Shown: positions 44,746 through 59,181 of the stretch, piece by piece
How positions within the stretch are numbered: position 1 is the stretch's first letter
Layout: every line of letters starts with the position of its first letter
DNA from: an uncultured Methanosarcinales archaeon
GTDB lineage: Archaea > Nanobdellota > Nanobdellia > Woesearchaeales > GW2011-AR4
Reading direction: 5' to 3'
Length of the DNA: 64,000 nucleotides
NCBI GenBank assembly: GCA_964650285.1
Contig: CAZYSP010000003.1
Coordinates: 6,364 to 70,363 of the forward strand
The notes under the pieces: generated by a model
Told to the model about the DNA's origin: nothing
What the model saw: only the letters and a program-made list of their open reading frames with translations
Databases searched by the model: none
Translations under genes and position numbers: made by a program

Positions 44746-45540
44746 TTAGCTTTGCTGCAAAAACTCATTAATCTTAACTTTAGCATCTCTGTTTTCATCA
44801 AATTTTTTAATTAACTCTTCTTTATTATCTATGTAACCAGACTGCTCAAGAAAATCAGTAAAATCTATTTTTTCAGAATTTTCAAATCTTTTAAGGAAGA
44901 AATCATATGGATAGTTCATAGCCGGCCTTAAAAGTTTCTTCTTCATTAAGACTACTATTGTTCTGTTAACCCATTCAGTTATATAGTCAAACTGAACTGC
45001 ATTTTCAAAAGATCCATCAGGAAACGCTTTTGAAAGAAATTTAACCATATCATTATAATTTTCTGGTATTATAGGCATTAATTTCTCCATAGCATCACAT
45101 GTCCCGAACATATTTTCCTTTTTTGGTTCTTCCCCTGTTTTAAGAAAAGGACCTCTGTTAAAGGGAAATAATCTGCATACATATGCTCTTTTTGTAGTAT
45201 ATACTAAACACTTCCTGTCCTTTAAAAAAGGGCATGCATCAGAATCCATAAAATAAGTTACAATAATTGTTTTATTTGTGCTCAAATCCAAAATTGCTCT
45301 TGAGGGTTTGATTTTTGCATCTACATTCACTTCCTGCTGCCATTTTCTAAACCGCTTAGCTTCCCAGTCCCATAAAGGAAAAGACATTTTTTCTATTGGA
45401 ACCAGTTGTACTAAAGGAAGCTTTCCATAAGCCATCTCTTTCATGAATTCTTTGTCTTCTTGAGGCATCATACCTCTTATATGGCTACAGCAACTTCCGC
45501 ACTGGTTGCATTTAAAGGTTTTTTCCTGCTCTAGTTTCAT
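44746..45540 (-). CDS. YkgJ-family putative zinc/iron-chelating protein
   Basis: CNQCGSCC near the N-terminus plus CPFL..KC..C downstream. Confidence 0.55.
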   Translation of the reverse strand: MKLEQEKTFKCNQCGSCCSHIRGMMPQEDKEFMKEMAYGKLPLVQLVPIEKMSFPLWDWEAKRFRKWQQEVNVDAKIKPSRAILDLSTNKTIIVTYFMDSDACPFLKDRKCLVYTTKRAYVCRLFPFNRGPFLKTGEEPKKENMFGTCDAMEKLMPIIPENYNDMVKFLSKAFPDGSFENAVQFDYITEWVNRTIVVLMKKKLLRPAMNYPYDFFLKRFENSEKIDFTDFLEQSGYIDNKEELIKKFDENRDAKVKINEFLQQS

Positions 45541-45618: not shown

Positions 45619-46449
45619 TTATTGAAAACTAAATGTACCAGCAGGCAAAGCCCTTATTATCTCATCAATATCCAAATTTCCACCTAACTTGTAGCTTATT
45701 TTCTTTGCAATGCTGCTTACTTTTTCATTTCCCTGCTTTAGTATAATATATTTTTTACAGTTCTTTTTTATTGCTTCTACCGGACCGGACATGATTGCAT
45801 TCTCTTTTGTAATCCCAACAGCTAAATTTACTTTGTTTTCTATGTAGTTAGTTTTTCCATAAATCATAAAGGCTCCTTTTCCCATGTATTCCCCTGCTTT
45901 GGTTTTTTTGCTTACCTGTTCTGGTTTAACATAGAAAACATCTGATGTCTGCAAACCTAATTTCCATGTCTTTGAGAATGTGCATACTGCATCAGCAGAT
46001 TCCTTAATTGTTGATTCAGGAATTTTTTTACCTTTTGATTTAATCACAAAGAAAGGGCTTCCTGCCATATCTGTATGCAAAACTAAGTCATTTTCATCTG
46101 TATGCTTCTTGATTGCAATTTCATTAGAAGTAGCATCTCTTCCACCTAAAACAAGAAAACCATCAGAGCTTGTGAACCATCTGAATTTTTCATACCATTC
46201 TTTTTTTCTTTCTTTTGCTTTGCTTTTTTGCTCTTCTTCTGCAGATAATTTCTCTTTTTTTGCTTCTAGCTCTTTTAACTTTTTCAGACTTTTTTGTAAA
46301 GCCTCTTCTGCACCCTTTATCTTCTTCTTTATCTTCTTGGCCTTCTCAAAATAATCAGACGCATTCTCTTCTATTGATTTCTTCAGATCCAGAACTAATC
46401 TTGCCATTAAAAGCATAATTAATGAGAAGATTTTATAAATTTTTTCCAA
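45619..46449 (-). CDS. NFACT-R (DUF814) RNA-binding domain protein with N-terminal coiled coil
   Basis: FTSSDGFLVLGGRDATSNEIAIKKH...LHTDMAGSPFFVIK. Confidence 0.5.
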   Translation of the reverse strand: MEKIYKIFSLIMLLMARLVLDLKKSIEENASDYFEKAKKIKKKIKGAEEALQKSLKKLKELEAKKEKLSAEEEQKSKAKERKKEWYEKFRWFTSSDGFLVLGGRDATSNEIAIKKHTDENDLVLHTDMAGSPFFVIKSKGKKIPESTIKESADAVCTFSKTWKLGLQTSDVFYVKPEQVSKKTKAGEYMGKGAFMIYGKTNYIENKVNLAVGITKENAIMSGPVEAIKKNCKKYIILKQGNEKVSSIAKKISYKLGGNLDIDEIIRALPAGTFSFQ

Positions 46450-46510
46450 AATCTTAAATTTCCGAATAAAAACAACAATATTTATAAAAGCTAAATCTTA
46501 GGAAAATAAT

Positions 46511-47239
46511 ATGCCAGAACAACAAGTGCCGCAACAGCAGATGAGTGGGGAGCAAATTAAGGCTCTGCAGGAGAAAATTAAGCAGATGTCTCCTGAGGAG
46601 CTTAAAGAATTTCAGAAAAAGCAATGCATTTTCTGCCAGATTGTTTCTGGAAAAGTTCAGTCAAAAAAGGTTTATGAGGATGATGATGTGATTGCAGTTC
46701 TTGATGTAAATCCAGCAAATCCAGGACATATTCTTATCATGCCTAAAGAGCATTATTCTATAATGCCACAAATACCTTATGAGGATATAGAGCATATTTT
46801 CATGGTTACTAAAGCCTTATCTAATGCTTCATTAAGAGCCTTGGGGGTACAAGGTTCTAATATTATTGTGGCTAATGGTGTTGCTGCTGGACAAAGAGCT
46901 CAACACTTCATGGTGCATTTAATCCCCAGGAAAGAAAATGACAATATACAATTTCAGGTTCCGCAAAAAACCATTCCAGAGCAGGAACTGCAAAAGGTAA
47001 GAAAAGCATTATCTGAAAGCTTAGGAGCAAAAGCAGAAGAATCTGAAGAAAAAATGACTGCTGTTCCATTAATACGAAAACAGAAGGTTGTAGAAGCAGA
47101 ATTCAAAGAAAAAAAAGAGCCAAGAAAAAGAGCCAAGAAAAAAGAAGTAAAAAAAGAAACTAAAACAAAAGGCAAGCAAAAGAAAGCTAATGAAGGTATA
47201 AATCTTGACGATATAGCAAAAGTTTTAGGACCGGGATAA
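46511..47239 (+). CDS. HIT-like protein with degenerate histidine triad (H-x-M-x-H) and K/E-rich tail
   Basis: CIFCQIV N-terminus typical of Hint. Triad region reads AQHFMVHLIP where HxHxH is expected. Confidence 0.6.
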   Translation: MPEQQVPQQQMSGEQIKALQEKIKQMSPEELKEFQKKQCIFCQIVSGKVQSKKVYEDDDVIAVLDVNPANPGHILIMPKEHYSIMPQIPYEDIEHIFMVTKALSNASLRALGVQGSNIIVANGVAAGQRAQHFMVHLIPRKENDNIQFQVPQKTIPEQELQKVRKALSESLGAKAEESEEKMTAVPLIRKQKVVEAEFKEKKEPRKRAKKKEVKKETKTKGKQKKANEGINLDDIAKVLGPG

Positions 47240-47242
47240 AAA

Positions 47243-47791
47243 ATGAAAACAAGGGAAAGCTGTTTGATATGCCAGATTGTAGGGAATAAAGTTCCATCCT
47301 ATAAAGTATATGAAGATGACTTAATCTTAGCAGTTGTAGATGTAAATGGAGCTAACCCCGGGCATTGTTTTGTGATTCCAAAAAACCATTATCCTATTAT
47401 TGAGCAAGTGCCTGACCAAGAGCTTGCAAATCTTTTTTCAGTTGCGAATAAAATTTCTTCTGCTATATTTGAAAATCTAAAAGTGCAGGGAACAAATATA
47501 TTTGTTGCTAACGGAATTCCAGCTGGCCAGACTGTAGCGCATTTTATGATTAATGTTATACCAAGAAAAGAGAATGATGGTATTAACCTGCAATGGAAAG
47601 CAAAGCAATTAAGCCAGGAAGAGATGTCCACTGTTGAGCTTAAGCTTAAAGAGCAAATACAGAATGTGGGTGTAGGAAAAATTGAAAAAACAGAGAAGCC
47701 AGAAACAGCTGCTGAGAAAGCAAAAATACCGCCAATATCAGATGATGACGAAGATGATTATTTTATGAGGCAAACAAAAAGAATACCTTAA
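47243..47791 (+). CDS. HIT-like paralogue with degenerate triad (H-x-M-x-N)
   Basis: CLICQIV N-terminus. Triad region VAHFMINVIP. Starts 4 bp after the previous gene. Confidence 0.6.
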   Translation: MKTRESCLICQIVGNKVPSYKVYEDDLILAVVDVNGANPGHCFVIPKNHYPIIEQVPDQELANLFSVANKISSAIFENLKVQGTNIFVANGIPAGQTVAHFMINVIPRKENDGINLQWKAKQLSQEEMSTVELKLKEQIQNVGVGKIEKTEKPETAAEKAKIPPISDDDEDDYFMRQTKRIP

Positions 47792-48725: not shown

Positions 48726-49664
48726 TTATTGTTTAATCTTAACCAATGCTTTATCCTTTGCTTTATTCAGCTTATCCGCAAATTTGCAGGCATTGCACTT
48801 ATCCCTTGATGCCGGCTCTCCGCAATTCATGCAATAATTTACTGCTTCATCCTTAAATCTTTGCTTTAAGCCAGGAAGAACATGCAAAAAGGAATTTACA
48901 ATGGAATATTTTGTTCCAGGAAACTTCTGCTCAAAACCATTCATCATGTCCCTTACTTGCGCCCTGTAGCTTTTTGAAACATTGGGGCACTCCGCAAACT
49001 CATCCAATAGATTATTGACAAATGCATAAGTTGCCACTTCTTTTTCCATGCATAAATACAATGGCTTGATTCTCTGGACAAAATTTTTATTTATTTTTAC
49101 CCCGACTTTTGGGCCTAATCTGGCAGAAGCCTGTATGTTGTTCTTAAACTGGTTCATCATGATACTCTGGCACTCATCATCCAGATTATGTCCAGTTGCT
49201 AGTTTTGTAAGCCTTAGTTCTTTTGATTTTTTATTTAGAAGATAGCGCCTGAATATTCCGCATATTGTACATGGCTTTACATCAAGAACTTTTAACATAT
49301 TGTCCAAAGGCATTCCAAACTCTTCTTTGAAAGAATAAATATTTAATTTGATATTATGCTTATTGCAGAACTCTTTTGCAGTTATTAAGGATTTGTCCCT
49401 GTAATTTTTTATTCCTTCATCTATAGCTATTGCTTCTATTTTTATCTTAGGATTTCGCTTTGATAATTTATTCAAAATATATAATAATGTTAAAGAATCC
49501 TTGCCGCCAGAAATAGCAACACCCAGATTTTCTTGTTTTTCAATAAGACCAAATTTAGTTATAGTTTTGAATACTTTGTCCTCAAAATAGTTTATAAAAT
49601 GTTTTTTGCACAGCTTTTCTCCTGCCGGCAATTCAATTATCGGCTTTTCAATACAACACTTCAT
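48726..49664 (-). CDS. tRNA 2-thiolation PP-loop ATPase (NcsA/TtuA/Ctu1-like)
   Basis: SGGKDS PP-loop. N- and C-terminal CxxC zinc fingers (CMNCGEP...CNACK). Confidence 0.75.
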   Translation of the reverse strand: MKCCIEKPIIELPAGEKLCKKHFINYFEDKVFKTITKFGLIEKQENLGVAISGGKDSLTLLYILNKLSKRNPKIKIEAIAIDEGIKNYRDKSLITAKEFCNKHNIKLNIYSFKEEFGMPLDNMLKVLDVKPCTICGIFRRYLLNKKSKELRLTKLATGHNLDDECQSIMMNQFKNNIQASARLGPKVGVKINKNFVQRIKPLYLCMEKEVATYAFVNNLLDEFAECPNVSKSYRAQVRDMMNGFEQKFPGTKYSIVNSFLHVLPGLKQRFKDEAVNYCMNCGEPASRDKCNACKFADKLNKAKDKALVKIKQ

Positions 49665-49713
49665 TTTATTATTAATAATTATTATTTTTTAAATTTAATT
49701 TTTATTATTGTAA

Positions 49714-49971
49714 TTAACCTCCTGAAATAACAGATATTAGCCTTATATTATCTTTATCATTGAGTTTCTCGTCTTCTGTGACAACAGTATCATCTTTGCT
49801 TACTATTACTGTAACTGGATTTATTTTCATTTTATCTAATAGGTTTTTTACTAATGAATTGCCAGCTAACTCTATTGTTTTTTCTTTGTTTTCACGGTCA
49901 TAATATACATGTATCTCCATAGGAATGAAGAAACAAATATCAGTTTTTAAAGGTTTATATTGCTTAATCAA
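49714..49971 (-). CDS. ubiquitin-like sulfur-carrier protein (ThiS/MoaD/SAMP fold) ending in GG
   Basis: C-terminal ...IRLISVISGG. Lies immediately upstream of the thiolation ATPase on the same strand. True start may be the internal Met, giving 68 aa. Confidence 0.55.
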   Translation of the reverse strand: MIKQYKPLKTDICFFIPMEIHVYYDRENKEKTIELAGNSLVKNLLDKMKINPVTVIVSKDDTVVTEDEKLNDKDNIRLISVISGG

Positions 49972-50018
49972 ATGCTAAAACCAAAAAGCTTATAAAGTAC
50001 ATATGAATTATTATTCAT

Positions 50019-50318
50019 ATGAAGTGCAAATCATACGAGACCTTTTTCATTAATTTTTCAAATAAGAGCAAATTAGGCATAATTACAGCGCTAAGATCAG
50101 GGCCATTGAATGTAAGCACAATTGCCAAGAGGACTAAAGAAGAGCAAAGTGCTGTGTCCCACAACCTGAAAAAATTAAGCGCATGCCATATTCTGGATGT
50201 TGAAAAAGTGGGAAAAGAAAGAATATATTCATTAAATAAGGACACTGTCATGCCAATATTGAAGCTGGTTGAAAAACATGTCATAAAAAGGTGCCCTGGA
50301 GACTGCTGCAAAAAATGA
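50019..50318 (+). CDS. ArsR/SmtB-family HTH regulator with C-terminal Cys cluster
   Basis: HTH region LNVSTIAKRTKEEQSAVSHNLKKL. C-terminal CPGDCCKK. Its stop overlaps the iscS start in ATGA. Confidence 0.6.
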   Translation: MKCKSYETFFINFSNKSKLGIITALRSGPLNVSTIAKRTKEEQSAVSHNLKKLSACHILDVEKVGKERIYSLNKDTVMPILKLVEKHVIKRCPGDCCKK

Positions 50319-51469
50319 GAGCTAAGGAAATATATCTGGACAATGGGGCAACAACAAAAGTTGATCCCAAGGTTTTGGAAGCAATGATGCCCTACTTCGG
50401 CGAGAAATACGGCAATGCTTCTTCAAATCATACTTTAGGGCAAGCTTCAAAGGATGCCTTGGAAAATGCAAGAAAAATAATTGCTGAATCAATAAATGCA
50501 GAAAGTAATGAGATGATATTTACTTCTGGAGGAACAGAGTCAAATAACTTAGCAATCCAGGAAATAGCATACACAAACAGAGATAAAGGCAATCATATAA
50601 TAACAACAAAAGTAGAGCATAAAAGTATTCTAAACACTTGTAAATTTCTGGAAAAAGATGGTTTTAAAGTAACTTATCTTGGTGTTGATAAAGAAGGTTT
50701 TGTAAATCCAAAAGACTTAGAAAAAGCTATCACAAATGAAACAATTCTAGTTTCTATAATTCATGGAAATAATGAAATAGGAGCTATACAAGATTTAGAA
50801 GTTTTAGGAAAAATCTGCAAAAAAAATAATGTTTATTTTCATACTGATGCATGCCAAAGTTATACAAAAACACAGATTGATGTTAACAAGCAGAATCTTG
50901 ATCTTGTAACATTAAATTCACATAAAATCCACGGCCCAAAAGGAGTTGGTGCATTGTTTGTAAAAAAAGGAACAAATATCTACCAATTAATACATGGTGG
51001 AGGTCATGAGTTTGGATTAAGGTCAGGAACTGAAAATATACATGGAATTGTTGGTTTTGCAGAGGCTGTAAAATCAGCTGATAAAAAATATATAGAATAT
51101 ATGACGAGGTTAAGAGATAAATTAATCAATGGTGTTCCTAAGATACCATATGTAAAACTTAATGGTCCAAAAAATTCAAGATTGTGCAACAACACAAATT
51201 TTTCTTTTAAGGGAATTGAAGGAGAGGCAATTGTTGGGTATTTAGATCAGGAAAGGATTTACTCTTCAACAGGCTCTGCTTGCTCAGAAAAAACATTAGA
51301 GCCGAGCTATATTTTAAAGGCAATTGGCTTAAGTCACCAAGAAGCAAACGGAAGCCTAAGACTAGTGTTAAGCAGATTTACAACAGAAGAAGAAATTGAT
51401 TATGCTTTAAAAGTACTGCCGGGAATAGTGGAAAACTTAAGGAAAATGTCTCCATTATGGAAGGGATGA
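50315..51469 (+). CDS. iscS: cysteine desulfurase
   Basis: SGGTESNN, PLP-lysine SHKIHGPKG, SSTGSACSE motifs. Start is taken at MRAKEIYLDNGATT. Confidence 0.9.
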   Translation: MRAKEIYLDNGATTKVDPKVLEAMMPYFGEKYGNASSNHTLGQASKDALENARKIIAESINAESNEMIFTSGGTESNNLAIQEIAYTNRDKGNHIITTKVEHKSILNTCKFLEKDGFKVTYLGVDKEGFVNPKDLEKAITNETILVSIIHGNNEIGAIQDLEVLGKICKKNNVYFHTDACQSYTKTQIDVNKQNLDLVTLNSHKIHGPKGVGALFVKKGTNIYQLIHGGGHEFGLRSGTENIHGIVGFAEAVKSADKKYIEYMTRLRDKLINGVPKIPYVKLNGPKNSRLCNNTNFSFKGIEGEAIVGYLDQERIYSSTGSACSEKTLEPSYILKAIGLSHQEANGSLRLVLSRFTTEEEIDYALKVLPGIVENLRKMSPLWKG

Positions 51470-59097: not shown

Positions 59098-59181
59098 TGC
59101 GGCAGCCGAGATTCGAACTCGGGTCCCAGCCTTTTTACAATGTTTGGCAAGGCCGGATCTTAACCACTGGACTACTGCCGC
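59098..59181 (-). tRNA. tRNA-Gly(GCC) with 12-nt canonical intron
   Basis: GCGGCAG-TA-GTCC-AGTGGTTA-AGAT-C-CGGCC-TTGCCA[12 nt]A-GGCTG-GGAC-CCGAG-TTCGAAT-CTCGG-CTGCCGC-A. Confidence 0.7.

What the first reader, a model, noticed from the sequence alone, without database searches (positions are those of the whole stretch)
46511..47791. Tandem HIT-like paralogues that both lack the nucleophilic histidine
Both proteins begin with the Hint-type C(I/L)(F/I)CQIV motif and align to the histidine-triad loop. Hint GGQSVYHVHLHVLGG corresponds to AGQRAQHFMVHLIP in the first and AGQTVAHFMINVIP in the second. The central His (the nucleotidyl-accepting residue in Hint, Fhit and GalT) is Met in both, and the third His is Asn in the second. 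Both carry long K/E-rich C-terminal tails. A duplicated pair of probably non-catalytic HIT-fold proteins suggests a nucleotide-binding or regulatory role, not AMP-lysine hydrolysis.
Basis: partly seen in the sequence, partly recalled or inferred. Interest (0 to 1): 0.6.

Follow-up and report, generated by a model that had tools for sequence, protein, structure and literature searches.

The report
Paired archaeal HIT proteins lacking catalytic histidine
Two adjacent genes in this DPANN (Woesearchaeota-type) archaeal fragment encode HIT-fold proteins that have both lost the histidine HIT enzymes need for catalysis; the pair is kept next to each other in every related genome examined, so it is most likely a non-enzymatic nucleotide-binding heterodimer of unknown role.

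Summary
ORFs 46511-47239 (242 aa, "fam1") and 47243-47791 (182 aa, "fam2") match Pfam HIT (E 8.5e-18 and 1.1e-19). HMMER alignments to solved HIT proteins place H-F-M-V-H and H-F-M-I-N on the H-x-H-x-H triad, so the nucleophilic His is Met in both.

This is lineage-wide and not a local defect:
- No His occurs at that position in 326 fam1 and 191 fam2 homologues.
- The fam1 profile finds 517 representatives (clusters at 50% identity) with E<1e-30.
- In 75 of 75 evaluable Woesearchaeota/Nanoarchaeia loci, fam1 is followed directly by fam2, usually overlapping by 1-4 nt.
- Natural fam1-fam2 fusions exist, and AlphaFold2 models one confidently (pTM 0.82).

Fam1 keeps the CxxC/His/His set, the nucleoside and phosphate contacts and both flanking His. 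It replaces Hint Ser107 with Arg/Lys. Fam2's triad positions 2 and 3 drift. Each protein ends in a conserved short C-terminal motif. Fam1's motif follows a disordered K/E-rich linker and has the same spacing as the ribosomal-stalk aP1 C-terminal helix; this is a lead only.

Best reading: a non-catalytic, nucleotide-binding HIT heterodimer that acts as an adaptor or sensor. I found no paper on it. It is a new variant of a known kind.

The parts
46481..46489 (+). TATA-like element TTTATAAAA, centred about 26 nt upstream of the Q1 ATG. Probable archaeal promoter of a leaderless or short-leader two-gene operon.
   Evidence: Read directly from the sequence. Function is inferred from the usual archaeal TATA-to-start spacing and was not tested.
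46511..47239 (+). fam1 gene (242 aa): a HIT-fold protein with triad H132-F-M134-V-H136, an N-terminal helical extension, a K/E-rich disordered linker and a C-terminal short motif.
   Evidence: ORF; Pfam HIT E 8.5e-18; PDB alignments; 1608 homologues; 517 representatives at E<1e-30.
46544..46624 (+). fam1-specific N-terminal extension (aa 12-38, SGEQIKALQEKIKQMSPEELKEFQKKQ), predicted as two helices.
   Evidence: Near-invariant in 24-120 homologues. Helices H10-22 and H25-35 have pLDDT 85-88 in the fusion model. Helices H13-25 and H28-38 appear in the Q1 model. No Pfam match.
46625..46636 (+). C39-I-F-C42 (CxxC). Together with H73 and H132 this is the probable structural Zn-site ligand set of Zn-binding HIT proteins.
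   Evidence: C, C, H73 and H132 are 99.7-100% conserved in 326 fam1 sequences. Among the closest solved relatives is the 'ZN-bound' HIT protein 3o0m. The ligand assignment comes from general knowledge of HIT structures and was not tested.
46904..46918 (+). Degenerate histidine triad of fam1: H132 F133 M134 V135 H136. The nucleophile position is Met.
   Evidence: Across 326 homologues the position is Met 88%, Leu/Ile/Val most of the rest, never His. Both flanking His are 99-100% conserved.
47021..47194 (+). K/E-rich linker of fam1 (about aa 171-228), variable in length and predicted to be disordered.
   Evidence: pLDDT <50 over aa 171-242. Length and sequence vary among homologues while the ends are conserved.
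47195..47236 (+). fam1 C-terminal short linear motif G-I-N-L232-D-D-I235-A236-K-V238-L239-G240-P-G. Family consensus: [IV][NDS]-L-D-D-I-[AS]-x-[LVI]-[LF]-G/K.
   Evidence: Present in 76 of 82 fam1 genes from the window and related loci, and in no other of 2417 ORFs. Present in most of the 150 distant representatives. Short helix at 232-238 in the model. Spacing equals that of aP1 L100/L103/S104/L106/F107/G108 (PMC4267659).
47243..47791 (+). fam2 gene (182 aa): a HIT-fold protein with triad H100-F-M102-I-N104, starting 3 nt after the fam1 stop codon.
   Evidence: ORF; Pfam HIT E 1.1e-19; PDB alignments; 906 homologues; always directly downstream of fam1.
47540..47554 (+). Degenerate triad of fam2: H100 F101 M102 I103 N104.
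   Evidence: Across 191 homologues, position 2 is M 49%, T 17%, then L/V/A/I (the six commonest residues listed). The motif tallies show no His there. Position 3 is N 80%, H 11.5%.
47741..47788 (+). fam2 C-terminal motif ..SDDDEDDYFMRQTKRIP-COOH. Family consensus: [DE]3-[DNE]-Y-[FL]-x-[KR]-Q-[LM]-R-R-[IL]-P.
   Evidence: 73 of 78 fam2 genes end this way, with Y 93%, Q 89% and penultimate R 96%. Four of the five fusions from the protein searches keep the Y-x-x-x-Q-x-R-R-[IL]-P core and P0392 has E for the first R; the fusion representatives vary, and P0385 does not end in P. The predicted helix has low confidence.

Best explanation
The two genes encode the two subunits of an obligate HIT-fold heterodimer that has given up covalent nucleotidyl-histidine catalysis.

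Subunit 1 (fam1) still looks like a nucleotide-binding module:
- It keeps the CxxC/His/His set (probable Zn site), the nucleoside-contacting residues, and the Asn, Gln and two flanking His that hold the alpha-phosphate.
- The nucleophile is a hydrophobic Met.
- The leaving-group Ser of Hint is Arg/Lys.

Subunit 2 (fam2) is a more degenerate partner whose triad positions 2 and 3 drift.

Each subunit carries a C-terminal short linear motif, and fam1's motif sits on a long disordered K/E-rich tether. The most likely mode of action is a ligand-binding adaptor or sensor. It would hold, without turning over, an AMP-type ligand (an NMP-X compound, a dinucleoside polyphosphate or an adenylylated end), and it would be coupled to partner proteins or nucleic acid through the tails.

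Shown here: HIT fold, absence of the nucleophile, family-wide conservation, strict gene pairing, natural fusions, disordered tail with conserved end motifs.
Inferred: heterodimer, Zn site, nucleotide binding, lack of turnover, adaptor role.
For: - HIT fold and register.
- No His at the nucleophile position among the listed residues for 326 fam1 and 191 fam2 sequences, or in the motif tallies (one search lists only the commonest residues).
- Fam1 pocket residues equivalent to hHint1 I18, F19, I22, D43, H51, H59, G105, Q106, H110 and H114 are 91-100% conserved, and S107 is R/K in 96%.
- The Asn-Gly of 'ANG' (the N99 equivalent) is invariant in both families.
- Strong conservation over the full length, including the N-terminus and the end motifs.
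- 517 representatives (50%-identity clusters) at E<1e-30.
- fam1 and fam2 are adjacent in 75 of 75 evaluable loci. The commonest gaps are -4 (24 loci) and -1 (17 loci), consistent with translational coupling. Adjacency was also seen in L001-L004.
- Natural fam1-fam2 fusions occur in at least two lineages, on contigs of up to 52 kb.
- The AF2 model of fusion P0009 has pLDDT 83.9 and pTM 0.82, with both HIT domains at pLDDT about 90.
- Solved nucleophile mutants of HIT enzymes are deposited as substrate or analogue complexes (FHIT H96N 2fhi, hHint1 H112N 5km6). Loss of this His is therefore compatible with ligand binding.
- A HIT-motif-less Hint paralogue that works through heterodimerisation is a known precedent (Wpkci/ASW; PMC1386693).
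Against: - No binding or activity data exist.
- I could not inspect model coordinates, so the geometry of the pocket around Met134 and Arg129 is unverified.
- The heterodimer is inferred from gene order, fusions and a single-chain model. Homodimers of each protein are not excluded.
- The Q1 monomer model is poor (pLDDT 54.6), so nothing structural is shown for the window protein itself.
- The P0009-type fusions have lost fam1's linker and end motif, so that tail is not indispensable.
- No partner has been identified. Neighbouring genes (Peptidase_A24, NFACT-R, a membrane protein, UPP synthase) are mostly on the other strand, and their recurrence may be mere synteny.
Confidence: 0.55

Rival explanations
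1. Translation-linked stalk mimic, a more specific version of the best explanation. The fam1 tail (flexible charged linker plus terminal L-x-x-I-[AS]-x-L-[FL]-G helix) imitates the C-terminal helix of ribosomal stalk protein aP1/P0. It would dock the HIT heterodimer onto translational GTPases (aEF1A, aEF2, aIF5B) or ABCE1, either competing with the stalk or bringing a nucleotide-sensing module to these factors.
For: - The aP1 residues that contact aEF1A are L100, L103, S104, L106, F107 and the C-terminal G108. Mutations L103S, L106S and F107S abolish binding (PMC4267659).
- Fam1 has L (100%), I (99%), A/S (97%), L/V/I, L/F and then G at the same spacing. The motif sits at or within 0-5 residues of the C-terminus, after an acidic or charged flexible linker.
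- Many distant members end exactly in ..ISxLFG.
- An NFACT-R (ribosome-quality-control-type RNA-binding) gene lies within three genes in 32 of 79 loci.
Against: - The pattern is short. A rough composition estimate gives about 4e-4 per protein, and several known motifs were compared, so a chance resemblance is plausible.
- In the window's own clade the motif is V-L-G followed by two more residues, so the terminal-carboxylate contact of aP1 G108 would be lost.
- Some members carry the motif internally, and the P0009-type fusions lack it.
- No Woesearchaeal aP1 could be retrieved for comparison.
- No complex prediction was possible.
Confidence: 0.12
2. Binder of nucleic-acid ends. The heterodimer would recognise a 5'-adenylylated or nucleotide-capped DNA/RNA end (App-DNA/RNA, NAD- or Np4N-capped RNA) in the manner of aprataxin or DcpS, but without cleaving it. 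The lysine-rich tail would supply non-specific nucleic-acid affinity.
For: - The tail is strongly basic.
- About 10 of the 150 fam1 representatives end in a Cys-rich module with a weak Ada_Zn_binding match (E 4e-4 to 0.011; three of five tested). This gives a HIT plus Zn-module architecture reminiscent of aprataxin.
- The DcpS_C profile also matches both proteins.
- Arg/Lys in place of Ser107 adds positive charge next to the phosphate site.
Against: - The Ada match is below Pfam's cutoff and absent from the window protein.
- The DcpS_C hit is the generic HIT-fold overlap.
- Aprataxin is not among the top 50 structural matches.
- Fam2's tail is acidic.
- No nucleic-acid-processing genes sit in the operon.
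Confidence: 0.12
3. Still an enzyme. The pair would hydrolyse or transfer nucleotides by a non-covalent mechanism (direct attack by water or phosphate), using His136, His132 and Arg/Lys129 in place of the nucleotidyl-His intermediate.
For: - Every other catalytic-site feature of fam1 is conserved as tightly as in an enzyme.
- A new conserved basic residue appears at the Ser107 position.
- A related fusion, P0258, keeps a canonical H-A-H-I-H in its first domain, so active relatives exist.
Against: - To my knowledge (not checked here), every characterised HIT-superfamily branch (Hint, Fhit, GalT, aprataxin, DcpS) uses the middle His as nucleophile.
- Nucleophile mutants are deposited as substrate or analogue complexes (2fhi, 5km6), which fits trapping rather than turnover.
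- The position tolerates Met, Leu, Ile or Val, which suits a filler residue and not a catalytic one.
- No alternative motif is described in the searched literature.
Confidence: 0.12
4. Dominant-negative regulators, the ASW/HINTW model. One or both proteins would heterodimerise with, and silence, a canonical HIT hydrolase encoded elsewhere in the genome.
For: - The avian Wpkci/ASW precedent (PMC1386693).
- HIT proteins are dimers with composite active sites (general knowledge).
Against: - The two inactive genes are invariably adjacent, often translationally coupled and sometimes fused. This points to pairing with each other.
- No canonical HIT gene is present in the 64-kb window or in about 0.8 Mb of related loci.
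Confidence: 0.05

Closest known systems
Bacterial/archaeal Zn-binding 'HIT family proteins' of the Hit/COG0537 type (for example B. anthracis 3imi, B. subtilis Hit 1y23, M. smegmatis 3o0m, S. tokodaii 2eo4)
   Same: - Best sequence matches (E 1e-21 to 1e-23) and best structural matches (TM 0.77-0.89 on the target).
- Shared features: N-terminal CxxC, 'PGH/GH' His, 'NG..AGQ' loop, 'IPR' after the triad, and the C-terminal helix.
   Different: - Those proteins have an intact H-x-H-x-H and are single-gene products (general knowledge gives them as homodimers).
- The window proteins have H-x-M-x-H and H-x-M-x-N, are only 30-37% identical to them, and come as a fixed two-gene pair.
- The window proteins add an N-terminal extension, a disordered tail and end motifs.
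Hint (HINT1 / E. coli HinT) purine nucleoside phosphoramidases
   Same: HIT fold, and equivalent nucleoside and phosphate pocket residues.
   Different: - NCBIfam HinT models score far below their cutoffs (36.8 against 206 bits; 79 against 130 bits).
- The nucleophile His112 and the Ser107 equivalent are replaced.
Avian Wpkci/ASW (HINTW)
   Same: A Hint-family paralogue that lacks the HIT motif and is thought to act through heterodimerisation and not through catalysis (PMC1386693).
   Different: - ASW pairs with an active Hint, whereas here both partners lack the nucleophile.
- The lineages are unrelated (birds versus DPANN archaea).
- The archaeal proteins keep the flanking His and the Zn-type ligands and carry tails.
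GalT-type tandem-HIT proteins (GalT; ADP-glucose phosphorylase 1z84/2h39)
   Same: Two HIT-like halves in one chain. The natural fam1-fam2 fusion model aligns with them over about 320 columns (TMq 0.47-0.51). GalT's motif ends in Gln, much as fam2's ends in Asn (GalT motif from general knowledge).
   Different: - rmsd is 11-12 A and identity 13-14%.
- GalT keeps the nucleophilic His.
- In the window the halves are separate genes.
C-terminal helix of archaeal ribosomal stalk protein aP1/P0
   Same: A flexible charged linker followed by a terminal amphipathic motif with identical spacing: L-x-x-L-S-x-L-F-G versus L-D-D-I-[AS]-x-[LVI]-[LF]-G.
   Different: - No homology is implied and the resemblance covers only 6 positions.
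- The motif is not always at the very C-terminus.
- Binding to translation factors is untested.

Membership tests
HIT superfamily (Pfam PF01230 / HIT fold) | Sequence-profile match above the curated cutoff | tested here: met
   65.3 and 71.3 bits against a 21.5-bit cutoff.
HIT superfamily (Pfam PF01230 / HIT fold) | HIT alpha+beta fold | tested here: met
   In the AF2 model of the homologous fusion, each domain superposes on solved HIT proteins at TM 0.77-0.89 and rmsd 1.2-2.6 A. The window's Q1 monomer model is low-confidence but shows the same order of secondary-structure elements.
HIT superfamily (Pfam PF01230 / HIT fold) | H-x-H-x-H-x-x motif with the middle His as nucleotidyl acceptor | tested here: not met
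   H-F-M-V-H and H-F-M-I-N. No His is seen at the middle position in the residue tallies for 517 homologues.
HIT superfamily (Pfam PF01230 / HIT fold) | Dimer (or pseudo-dimer) of two HIT domains | tested here: inconclusive
   Inferred from strict gene adjacency (75 of 75 loci), natural fusions and pTM 0.82 for the fusion model. There is no direct evidence for the window proteins.
HIT superfamily (Pfam PF01230 / HIT fold) | Nucleotide hydrolase or transferase activity | not testable with these tools
   Requires an enzyme assay.
Hint / HinT purine nucleoside phosphoramidase (NCBIfam NF007965, NF045834) | Score above the curated cutoff of the equivalog (NF007965) or exception (NF045834) model | tested here: not met
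   36.8 and 34.8 bits against a 206-bit cutoff; 79.1 and 69.9 bits against a 130-bit cutoff.
ASW/HINTW-like dominant-negative Hint paralogue | Lacks the catalytic HIT motif | tested here: met
ASW/HINTW-like dominant-negative Hint paralogue | Partners with a catalytically intact Hint paralogue | tested here: not met
   The invariably adjacent partner also lacks the nucleophile. No canonical HIT gene lies in the window or the related loci. Whole genomes were not examined.
GalT-type tandem HIT | H-x-H-x-Q motif with a nucleophilic His, and two HIT halves in one chain | tested here: not met
   There is no nucleophilic His. In the window the genes are separate. Only a loose structural resemblance was found for the fusion (TMq about 0.5, rmsd 11 A).
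Aprataxin-like HIT-Zn-finger | HIT domain with a catalytic His, fused to a DNA-binding zinc finger | tested here: not met
   The window proteins have no Zn finger. A minority of relatives show a sub-threshold Ada_Zn_binding match. The nucleophile is absent.
P-stalk C-terminal-domain-like factor-binding motif | Terminal L-x-x-L-S-x-L-F-G amphipathic helix after a flexible linker | tested here: inconclusive
   The spacing and residue classes match across the family. The window version is L-D-D-I-A-K-V-L-G-P-G. The pattern is short enough to arise by chance.
P-stalk C-terminal-domain-like factor-binding motif | Binds aEF1A, aEF2, aIF5B or ABCE1 | not testable with these tools
   Needs complex prediction or biochemistry.

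The most novel reading that the evidence does not exclude
The pair is a previously unrecognised translation-associated regulator of DPANN archaea. A catalytically dead HIT heterodimer senses an adenylate-type ligand, such as Ap4A or an aminoacyl-adenylate made by aminoacyl-tRNA synthetases. Through a tethered C-terminal helix that mimics the ribosomal P-stalk, it engages translational GTPases or ABCE1. Nucleotide or alarmone status would thereby be coupled to ribosome activity.
Probability: 0.1. Interest if true: 0.8.

Novelty: new variant of a known kind. Interest (0 to 1): 0.5.

Why it matters
HIT proteins are defined by a histidine that forms a covalent nucleotide intermediate. Here a very large, strongly conserved archaeal clade has replaced that residue in both subunits of an apparently obligate pair, while keeping the rest of the nucleotide pocket in one of them. 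The clade comprises 517 clusters at 50% identity and was present in every related species-representative locus examined.

If the reading is right, this is a natural, lineage-wide 'substrate-trap' HIT module turned into a binding protein. It would be a clean system for asking what HIT domains sense when they do not hydrolyse, a question also debated for Fhit and HINT1 signalling. It would also assign a candidate regulatory role to one of the conserved unknowns in the reduced genomes of Woesearchaeota.

The two conserved terminal motifs give direct experimental handles for finding the partners by peptide pull-down.

Tried and rejected
- Mixed alignments for a paired MSA. MAFFT alignments of fusions plus both families (A2, A3) placed one family's HIT domain on the wrong half of the fusion. 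I used fusions plus fam1 only (A4).
- The AF2 model of Q1 alone was low-confidence (pLDDT 54.6). It was used only to show tail disorder and secondary structure.
- Programmed read-through between the two genes is rejected. The in-frame 3-nt spacing occurs in only one of the 75 loci tallied, the window being among them. Elsewhere the genes mostly overlap by 4 or 1 nt, which puts them in different frames.
- Met134 as a metal ligand (a His-Met-His site) is rejected, because Leu, Ile and Val substitute for it in about 11% of fam1 sequences.
Covariation with the lineage's own stalk could therefore not be tested.
- PCNA PIP-box, FtsZ C-terminal peptide, MIM and eIF4E-binding motifs were compared by eye with the tails. 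They were dismissed for wrong spacing or missing key residues. This rests on memory and was not computed.
- PADLOC gave only a generic HIT (ThsC) match. There is no defence context.
- Pfam on ten long family members found no extra domains.
- Gene-neighbourhood clustering gave recurrent but mostly opposite-strand neighbours with no clear functional link.
- Literature searches for HIT pseudoenzymes and for HIT proteins in Woesearchaeota or DPANN returned nothing relevant.
- The cluster look-up for taxonomy of distant representatives gave only one organism name, Woesearchaeota.
Full report
**1. The observation**

The window has two + strand ORFs at exactly the stated coordinates: 46511-47239 (242 aa, here Q1 or fam1) and 47243-47791 (182 aa, Q2 or fam2). 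They are separated by a TAA stop plus one codon and happen to be in the same frame.

Both match Pfam HIT PF01230 well above the cutoff, at E 8.5e-18 and 1.1e-19. phmmer against all PDB sequences aligns the triad strand of the best hit, B. anthracis 3imi 'AGQTVFHFHLHLIPR', without gaps to 'AGQRAQHFMVHLIPR' in Q1 and 'AGQTVAHFMINVIPR' in Q2. The middle histidine of H-x-H-x-H is the residue that becomes nucleotidylated in Hint, Fhit and GalT (established knowledge). It is Met134 in Q1 and Met102 in Q2, and the third histidine is Asn104 in Q2. No other HxHxH is present.

Three corrections apply.
- The CIFCQIV motif of Q1 starts at residue 39, after a conserved N-terminal extension.
- Only Q1 has a long K/E-rich disordered tail.
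- The proteins are 46% identical. They are closer to each other than to any solved HIT protein (27-37% identity), but each belongs to its own orthologous family.

**2. It is lineage-wide, not a local defect**

Searches of 5.8 billion proteins returned 1608 and 906 homologues. The source names are mostly Candidatus Woesearchaeota or Nanoarchaeota, and many come from marine and groundwater metagenomes. All 240 best hits lack the middle His.

A profile of fam1, searched against 1.84 billion 50%-identity cluster representatives, found 517 representatives at E<1e-30. All of the 148 top-150 representatives in which my pattern found the motif have H-x-[M/L/I/V, rarely S/T]-x-[H, rarely N/E], never His in the middle. 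One exception is the fusion P0258, whose first domain is H-A-H-I-H.

| hHint1 position | fam1 (326 sequences) | fam2 (191 sequences) |
|---|---|---|
| CxxC | about 100% | 100% |
| I18 | I 91% | L 70% |
| F19 | F 99.7% | I/L/V |
| I22 | I 96% | I 90% |
| D43 | D 99% | D 87% |
| H51 | H 99.7% | H 94% |
| H59 | H 100% | H 100% |
| G105, Q106 | 100% | 100% |
| S107 | R/K 96% | T 72% |
| H110 | H 100% | H 100% |
| H112 (nucleophile) | M 88%, L/I/V about 11% | M 49%, T 17%, then L, V, A, I |
| H114 | H 99% | N 80%, H 11.5% |

The Asn-Gly of the 'ANG' loop (the N99 equivalent) is invariant in both families. Fam1 therefore looks like a HIT nucleotide pocket with exactly two edits: the nucleophile has become a hydrophobic residue, and the leaving-group Ser has become a basic residue. 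Fam2 is more relaxed. Conservation extends over the whole length of both proteins, which excludes decaying pseudogenes.

**3. The two genes are an obligate pair**

A scan of one genome per GTDB species returned 80 related loci, and all but two bacterial false positives encode fam1. Of 79 distinct loci, counting the window and the loci have fam1 immediately followed by fam2 on the same strand. In the other four the contig ends within 190 nt downstream of fam1. The commonest gaps are -4 (24 loci) and -1 (17 loci), which is the arrangement expected for translational coupling. The same arrangement appears in metagenomic contigs of up to 190 kb.

Natural fam1-fam2 fusions exist in at least two lineages: P0009/P0011 and P0391/P0242/P0392. 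Further fusions are found among the representatives, some on 47-52 kb contigs.

AlphaFold2 models fusion P0009 with mean pLDDT 83.9 and pTM 0.82, with both HIT domains at about 90. Foldseek matches each domain to solved HIT proteins at TM 0.77-0.89. It matches the whole chain, loosely, to GalT-type tandem-HIT proteins. HIT proteins are dimers (established knowledge), so the simplest reading is a fam1-fam2 heterodimer. This is inferred and not shown.

There is no other HIT gene in the 64-kb window or in about 0.8 Mb of related loci.

**4. Appendages**

Fam1 has a near-invariant N-terminal extension (..EQIKALQEKIKxMSPEELKEFQKKQ-CIFC), predicted as two helices with pLDDT 85-88 in the fusion model.

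After the HIT core and a helix comes a K/E-rich linker that varies in length and sequence. It is predicted to be disordered (pLDDT <50).

The linker is followed by a conserved end motif, [IV][NDS]-L-D-D-I-[AS]-x-[LVI]-[LF]-G/K. The motif is present in 76 of 82 fam1 genes from the window and related loci, in most of the distant representatives, and in none of the other 2417 ORFs examined. In the window it reads GINLDDIAKVLGPG.

Fam2 ends in [DE]3-[DNE]-Y-[FL]-x-[KR]-Q-[LM]-R-R-[IL]-P-COOH in 73 of 78 genes. This motif is kept, with some variation, in most fusions. The P0009-type fusions, in contrast, have lost fam1's linker and end motif.

About 10 of the 150 fam1 representatives instead end in a Cys-rich module with a weak, sub-threshold Ada_Zn_binding match. 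Those inspected also carry internal copies of the LDxIxxLF-type motif.

**5. Context**

The pair forms its own small operon. A TATA-like TTTATAAAA is centred about 26 nt upstream of the Q1 ATG, which by inference makes the transcript leaderless or nearly so.

The flanking genes are:
- a divergent stand-alone NFACT-R protein;
- a CxxCxxCC-domain protein;
- a YjeF_N protein;
- a convergent archaeal type IV prepilin peptidase;
- an NcsA-like PP-loop protein, a SAMP2/ThiS-like protein, an ArsR regulator and an IscS-like protein.

Across the 79 loci the recurrent neighbours are Peptidase_A24 (42), NFACT-R (32), a membrane protein of about 490 aa (28) and UPP synthase (18). They are mostly on the opposite strand. 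I treat this as synteny without a clear functional message.

**6. How it most likely works**

The central His is gone, and the position tolerates Met, Leu, Ile or Val. A covalent nucleotidyl-enzyme intermediate is therefore impossible.

Nucleophile mutants of Fhit (H96N, 2fhi) and hHint1 (H112N, 5km6) are deposited as substrate or analogue complexes. Loss of this residue is thus compatible with stable ligand binding. Fam1's otherwise intact pocket, with an added Arg/Lys, suggests that it still binds an AMP-type ligand, possibly one carrying extra negative charge.

The conserved end motifs, one of them on a disordered tether, are typical of adaptor proteins that recruit partners.

My best explanation, at confidence about 0.55, is a non-catalytic nucleotide-binding HIT heterodimer acting as a sensor or adaptor. 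The steps that are shown and those that are inferred are listed in the Best explanation section.

**7. A lead on the partner**

The fam1 end motif has the same spacing and residue classes as the C-terminal helix of the archaeal ribosomal stalk protein aP1 (L100, L103, S104, L106, F107, C-terminal G108). That helix binds aEF1A, and the L103S, L106S and F107S mutations abolish binding (PMC4267659). Like the stalk helix, the fam1 motif follows a flexible charged linker.

The resemblance covers only six positions. It could be chance, and it is weaker in the window's own clade (V-L-G-P-G). I could not retrieve a Woesearchaeal aP1 or predict complexes. I rate this specific model at about 0.1-0.12.

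The other rivals are a binder of adenylylated or capped nucleic-acid ends (0.12), a still-active enzyme with a non-covalent mechanism (0.12), and an ASW-like dominant-negative regulator of a canonical HIT (0.05).

**8. Comparison with known families**

These are members of the HIT superfamily by fold and profile, but they fail its defining catalytic motif.

They are not Hint/HinT equivalogs. They are not GalT, and they are not aprataxin.

The nearest conceptual precedent is avian Wpkci/ASW, a HIT-motif-less Hint paralogue thought to act by heterodimerisation (PMC1386693). In that case the partner is active, and the lineage is unrelated.

Full-text searches found no paper on HIT pseudoenzymes, or on HIT proteins in Woesearchaeota or DPANN.

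I classify the pair as a new variant of a known kind.

**9. Verdict**

Interest is 0.5. The family is robust, very widespread and uncharacterised, and it has clear experimental handles. However, its mechanism is inferred, and loss of a catalytic residue in a duplicated enzyme is a familiar evolutionary theme.

Noticed in passing
window 46511-47239 (protein P0001) and related records: The identical protein is labelled 'Flavobacteriales bacterium' by NCBI. Close homologues are labelled 'Chloroflexota bacterium', and many species-representative MAGs 'uncultured Methanosarcinales archaeon'. Yet the gene content (archaeal prepilin peptidase, SAMP2, NFACT-R) and most other names indicate Woesearchaeota/Nanoarchaeota. 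These records are probably mis-binned or mislabelled.
   Followed up: partly
window 48726-51469: A sulfur-carrier / tRNA-thiolation-type cluster: a PP-loop NcsA-like protein (48726-49664, -), a ThiS/SAMP2-like small protein ending in GG (49714-49971, -), an ArsR-type HTH (50019-50318, +) and a class-V aminotransferase of the IscS/NifS type (50291-51469, +). The last two ORFs overlap by 28 nt.
   Followed up: partly
window 45619-46449 (-): A stand-alone NFACT-R (ribosome-quality-control-type RNA-binding) protein with an N-terminal K/E-rich coiled-coil-like segment. It is divergent from the HIT pair and recurs within three genes of the pair in 32 of 79 related loci. The listed TTG start is probably too far upstream, because homologues start at 'MARL..', which corresponds to the ATG near 46407.
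   Followed up: partly
window 59098-59181 (-): Rfam calls a second tRNA here (84 nt, 47.7 bits) that ARAGORN does not report. It may have a long variable arm or an intron.
   Followed up: no
related proteins P0254, P0256, P0276, P0279, P0287, P0294, P0298, P0336, P0348, P0366: About 10 of the 150 fam1 representatives end in a Cys-rich module, (K/R)(F/Y)H..xCP..(N)R..F....A...G..PCxC, in place of or in addition to the LDDIxxLF end motif. Three of five tested gave weak Ada_Zn_binding matches (E 4e-4 to 0.011, below the cutoff). P0256 and P0298 also contain internal repeats of an LDxIxxLF-like motif.
   Followed up: partly
related protein P0258 (332 aa): A fam1-fam2-type fusion whose first domain keeps a canonical H-A-H-I-H triad. 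Its second domain has H-V-C-A-H and the fam2 end motif (..EFLLSKLRRIP). It may be a catalytically competent relative, useful for dating the loss of the nucleophile.
   Followed up: no
window 46565-46612 and 47186-47230, versus 47564-47644: There are weak internal resemblances. Q1's N-terminal 'LQEKIKQMSPEELKEF' resembles fam2's post-triad 'LQWKAKQLSQEEMSTVELK'. Q1's C-terminal 'KKANEGINLDDIAKVLG' resembles fam2's 'RKENDGINLQWKAKQLS'. The pairwise E-values are 0.08-0.11. These could be relics of an older tandem arrangement, or chance.
   Followed up: no
window 44746-45540 (-): A 264-aa protein with a CxxCxxCC putative Zn/Fe-chelating domain (PF03692, E 1.6e-7). It recurs upstream of the pair in 10 of 79 loci.
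   Followed up: no
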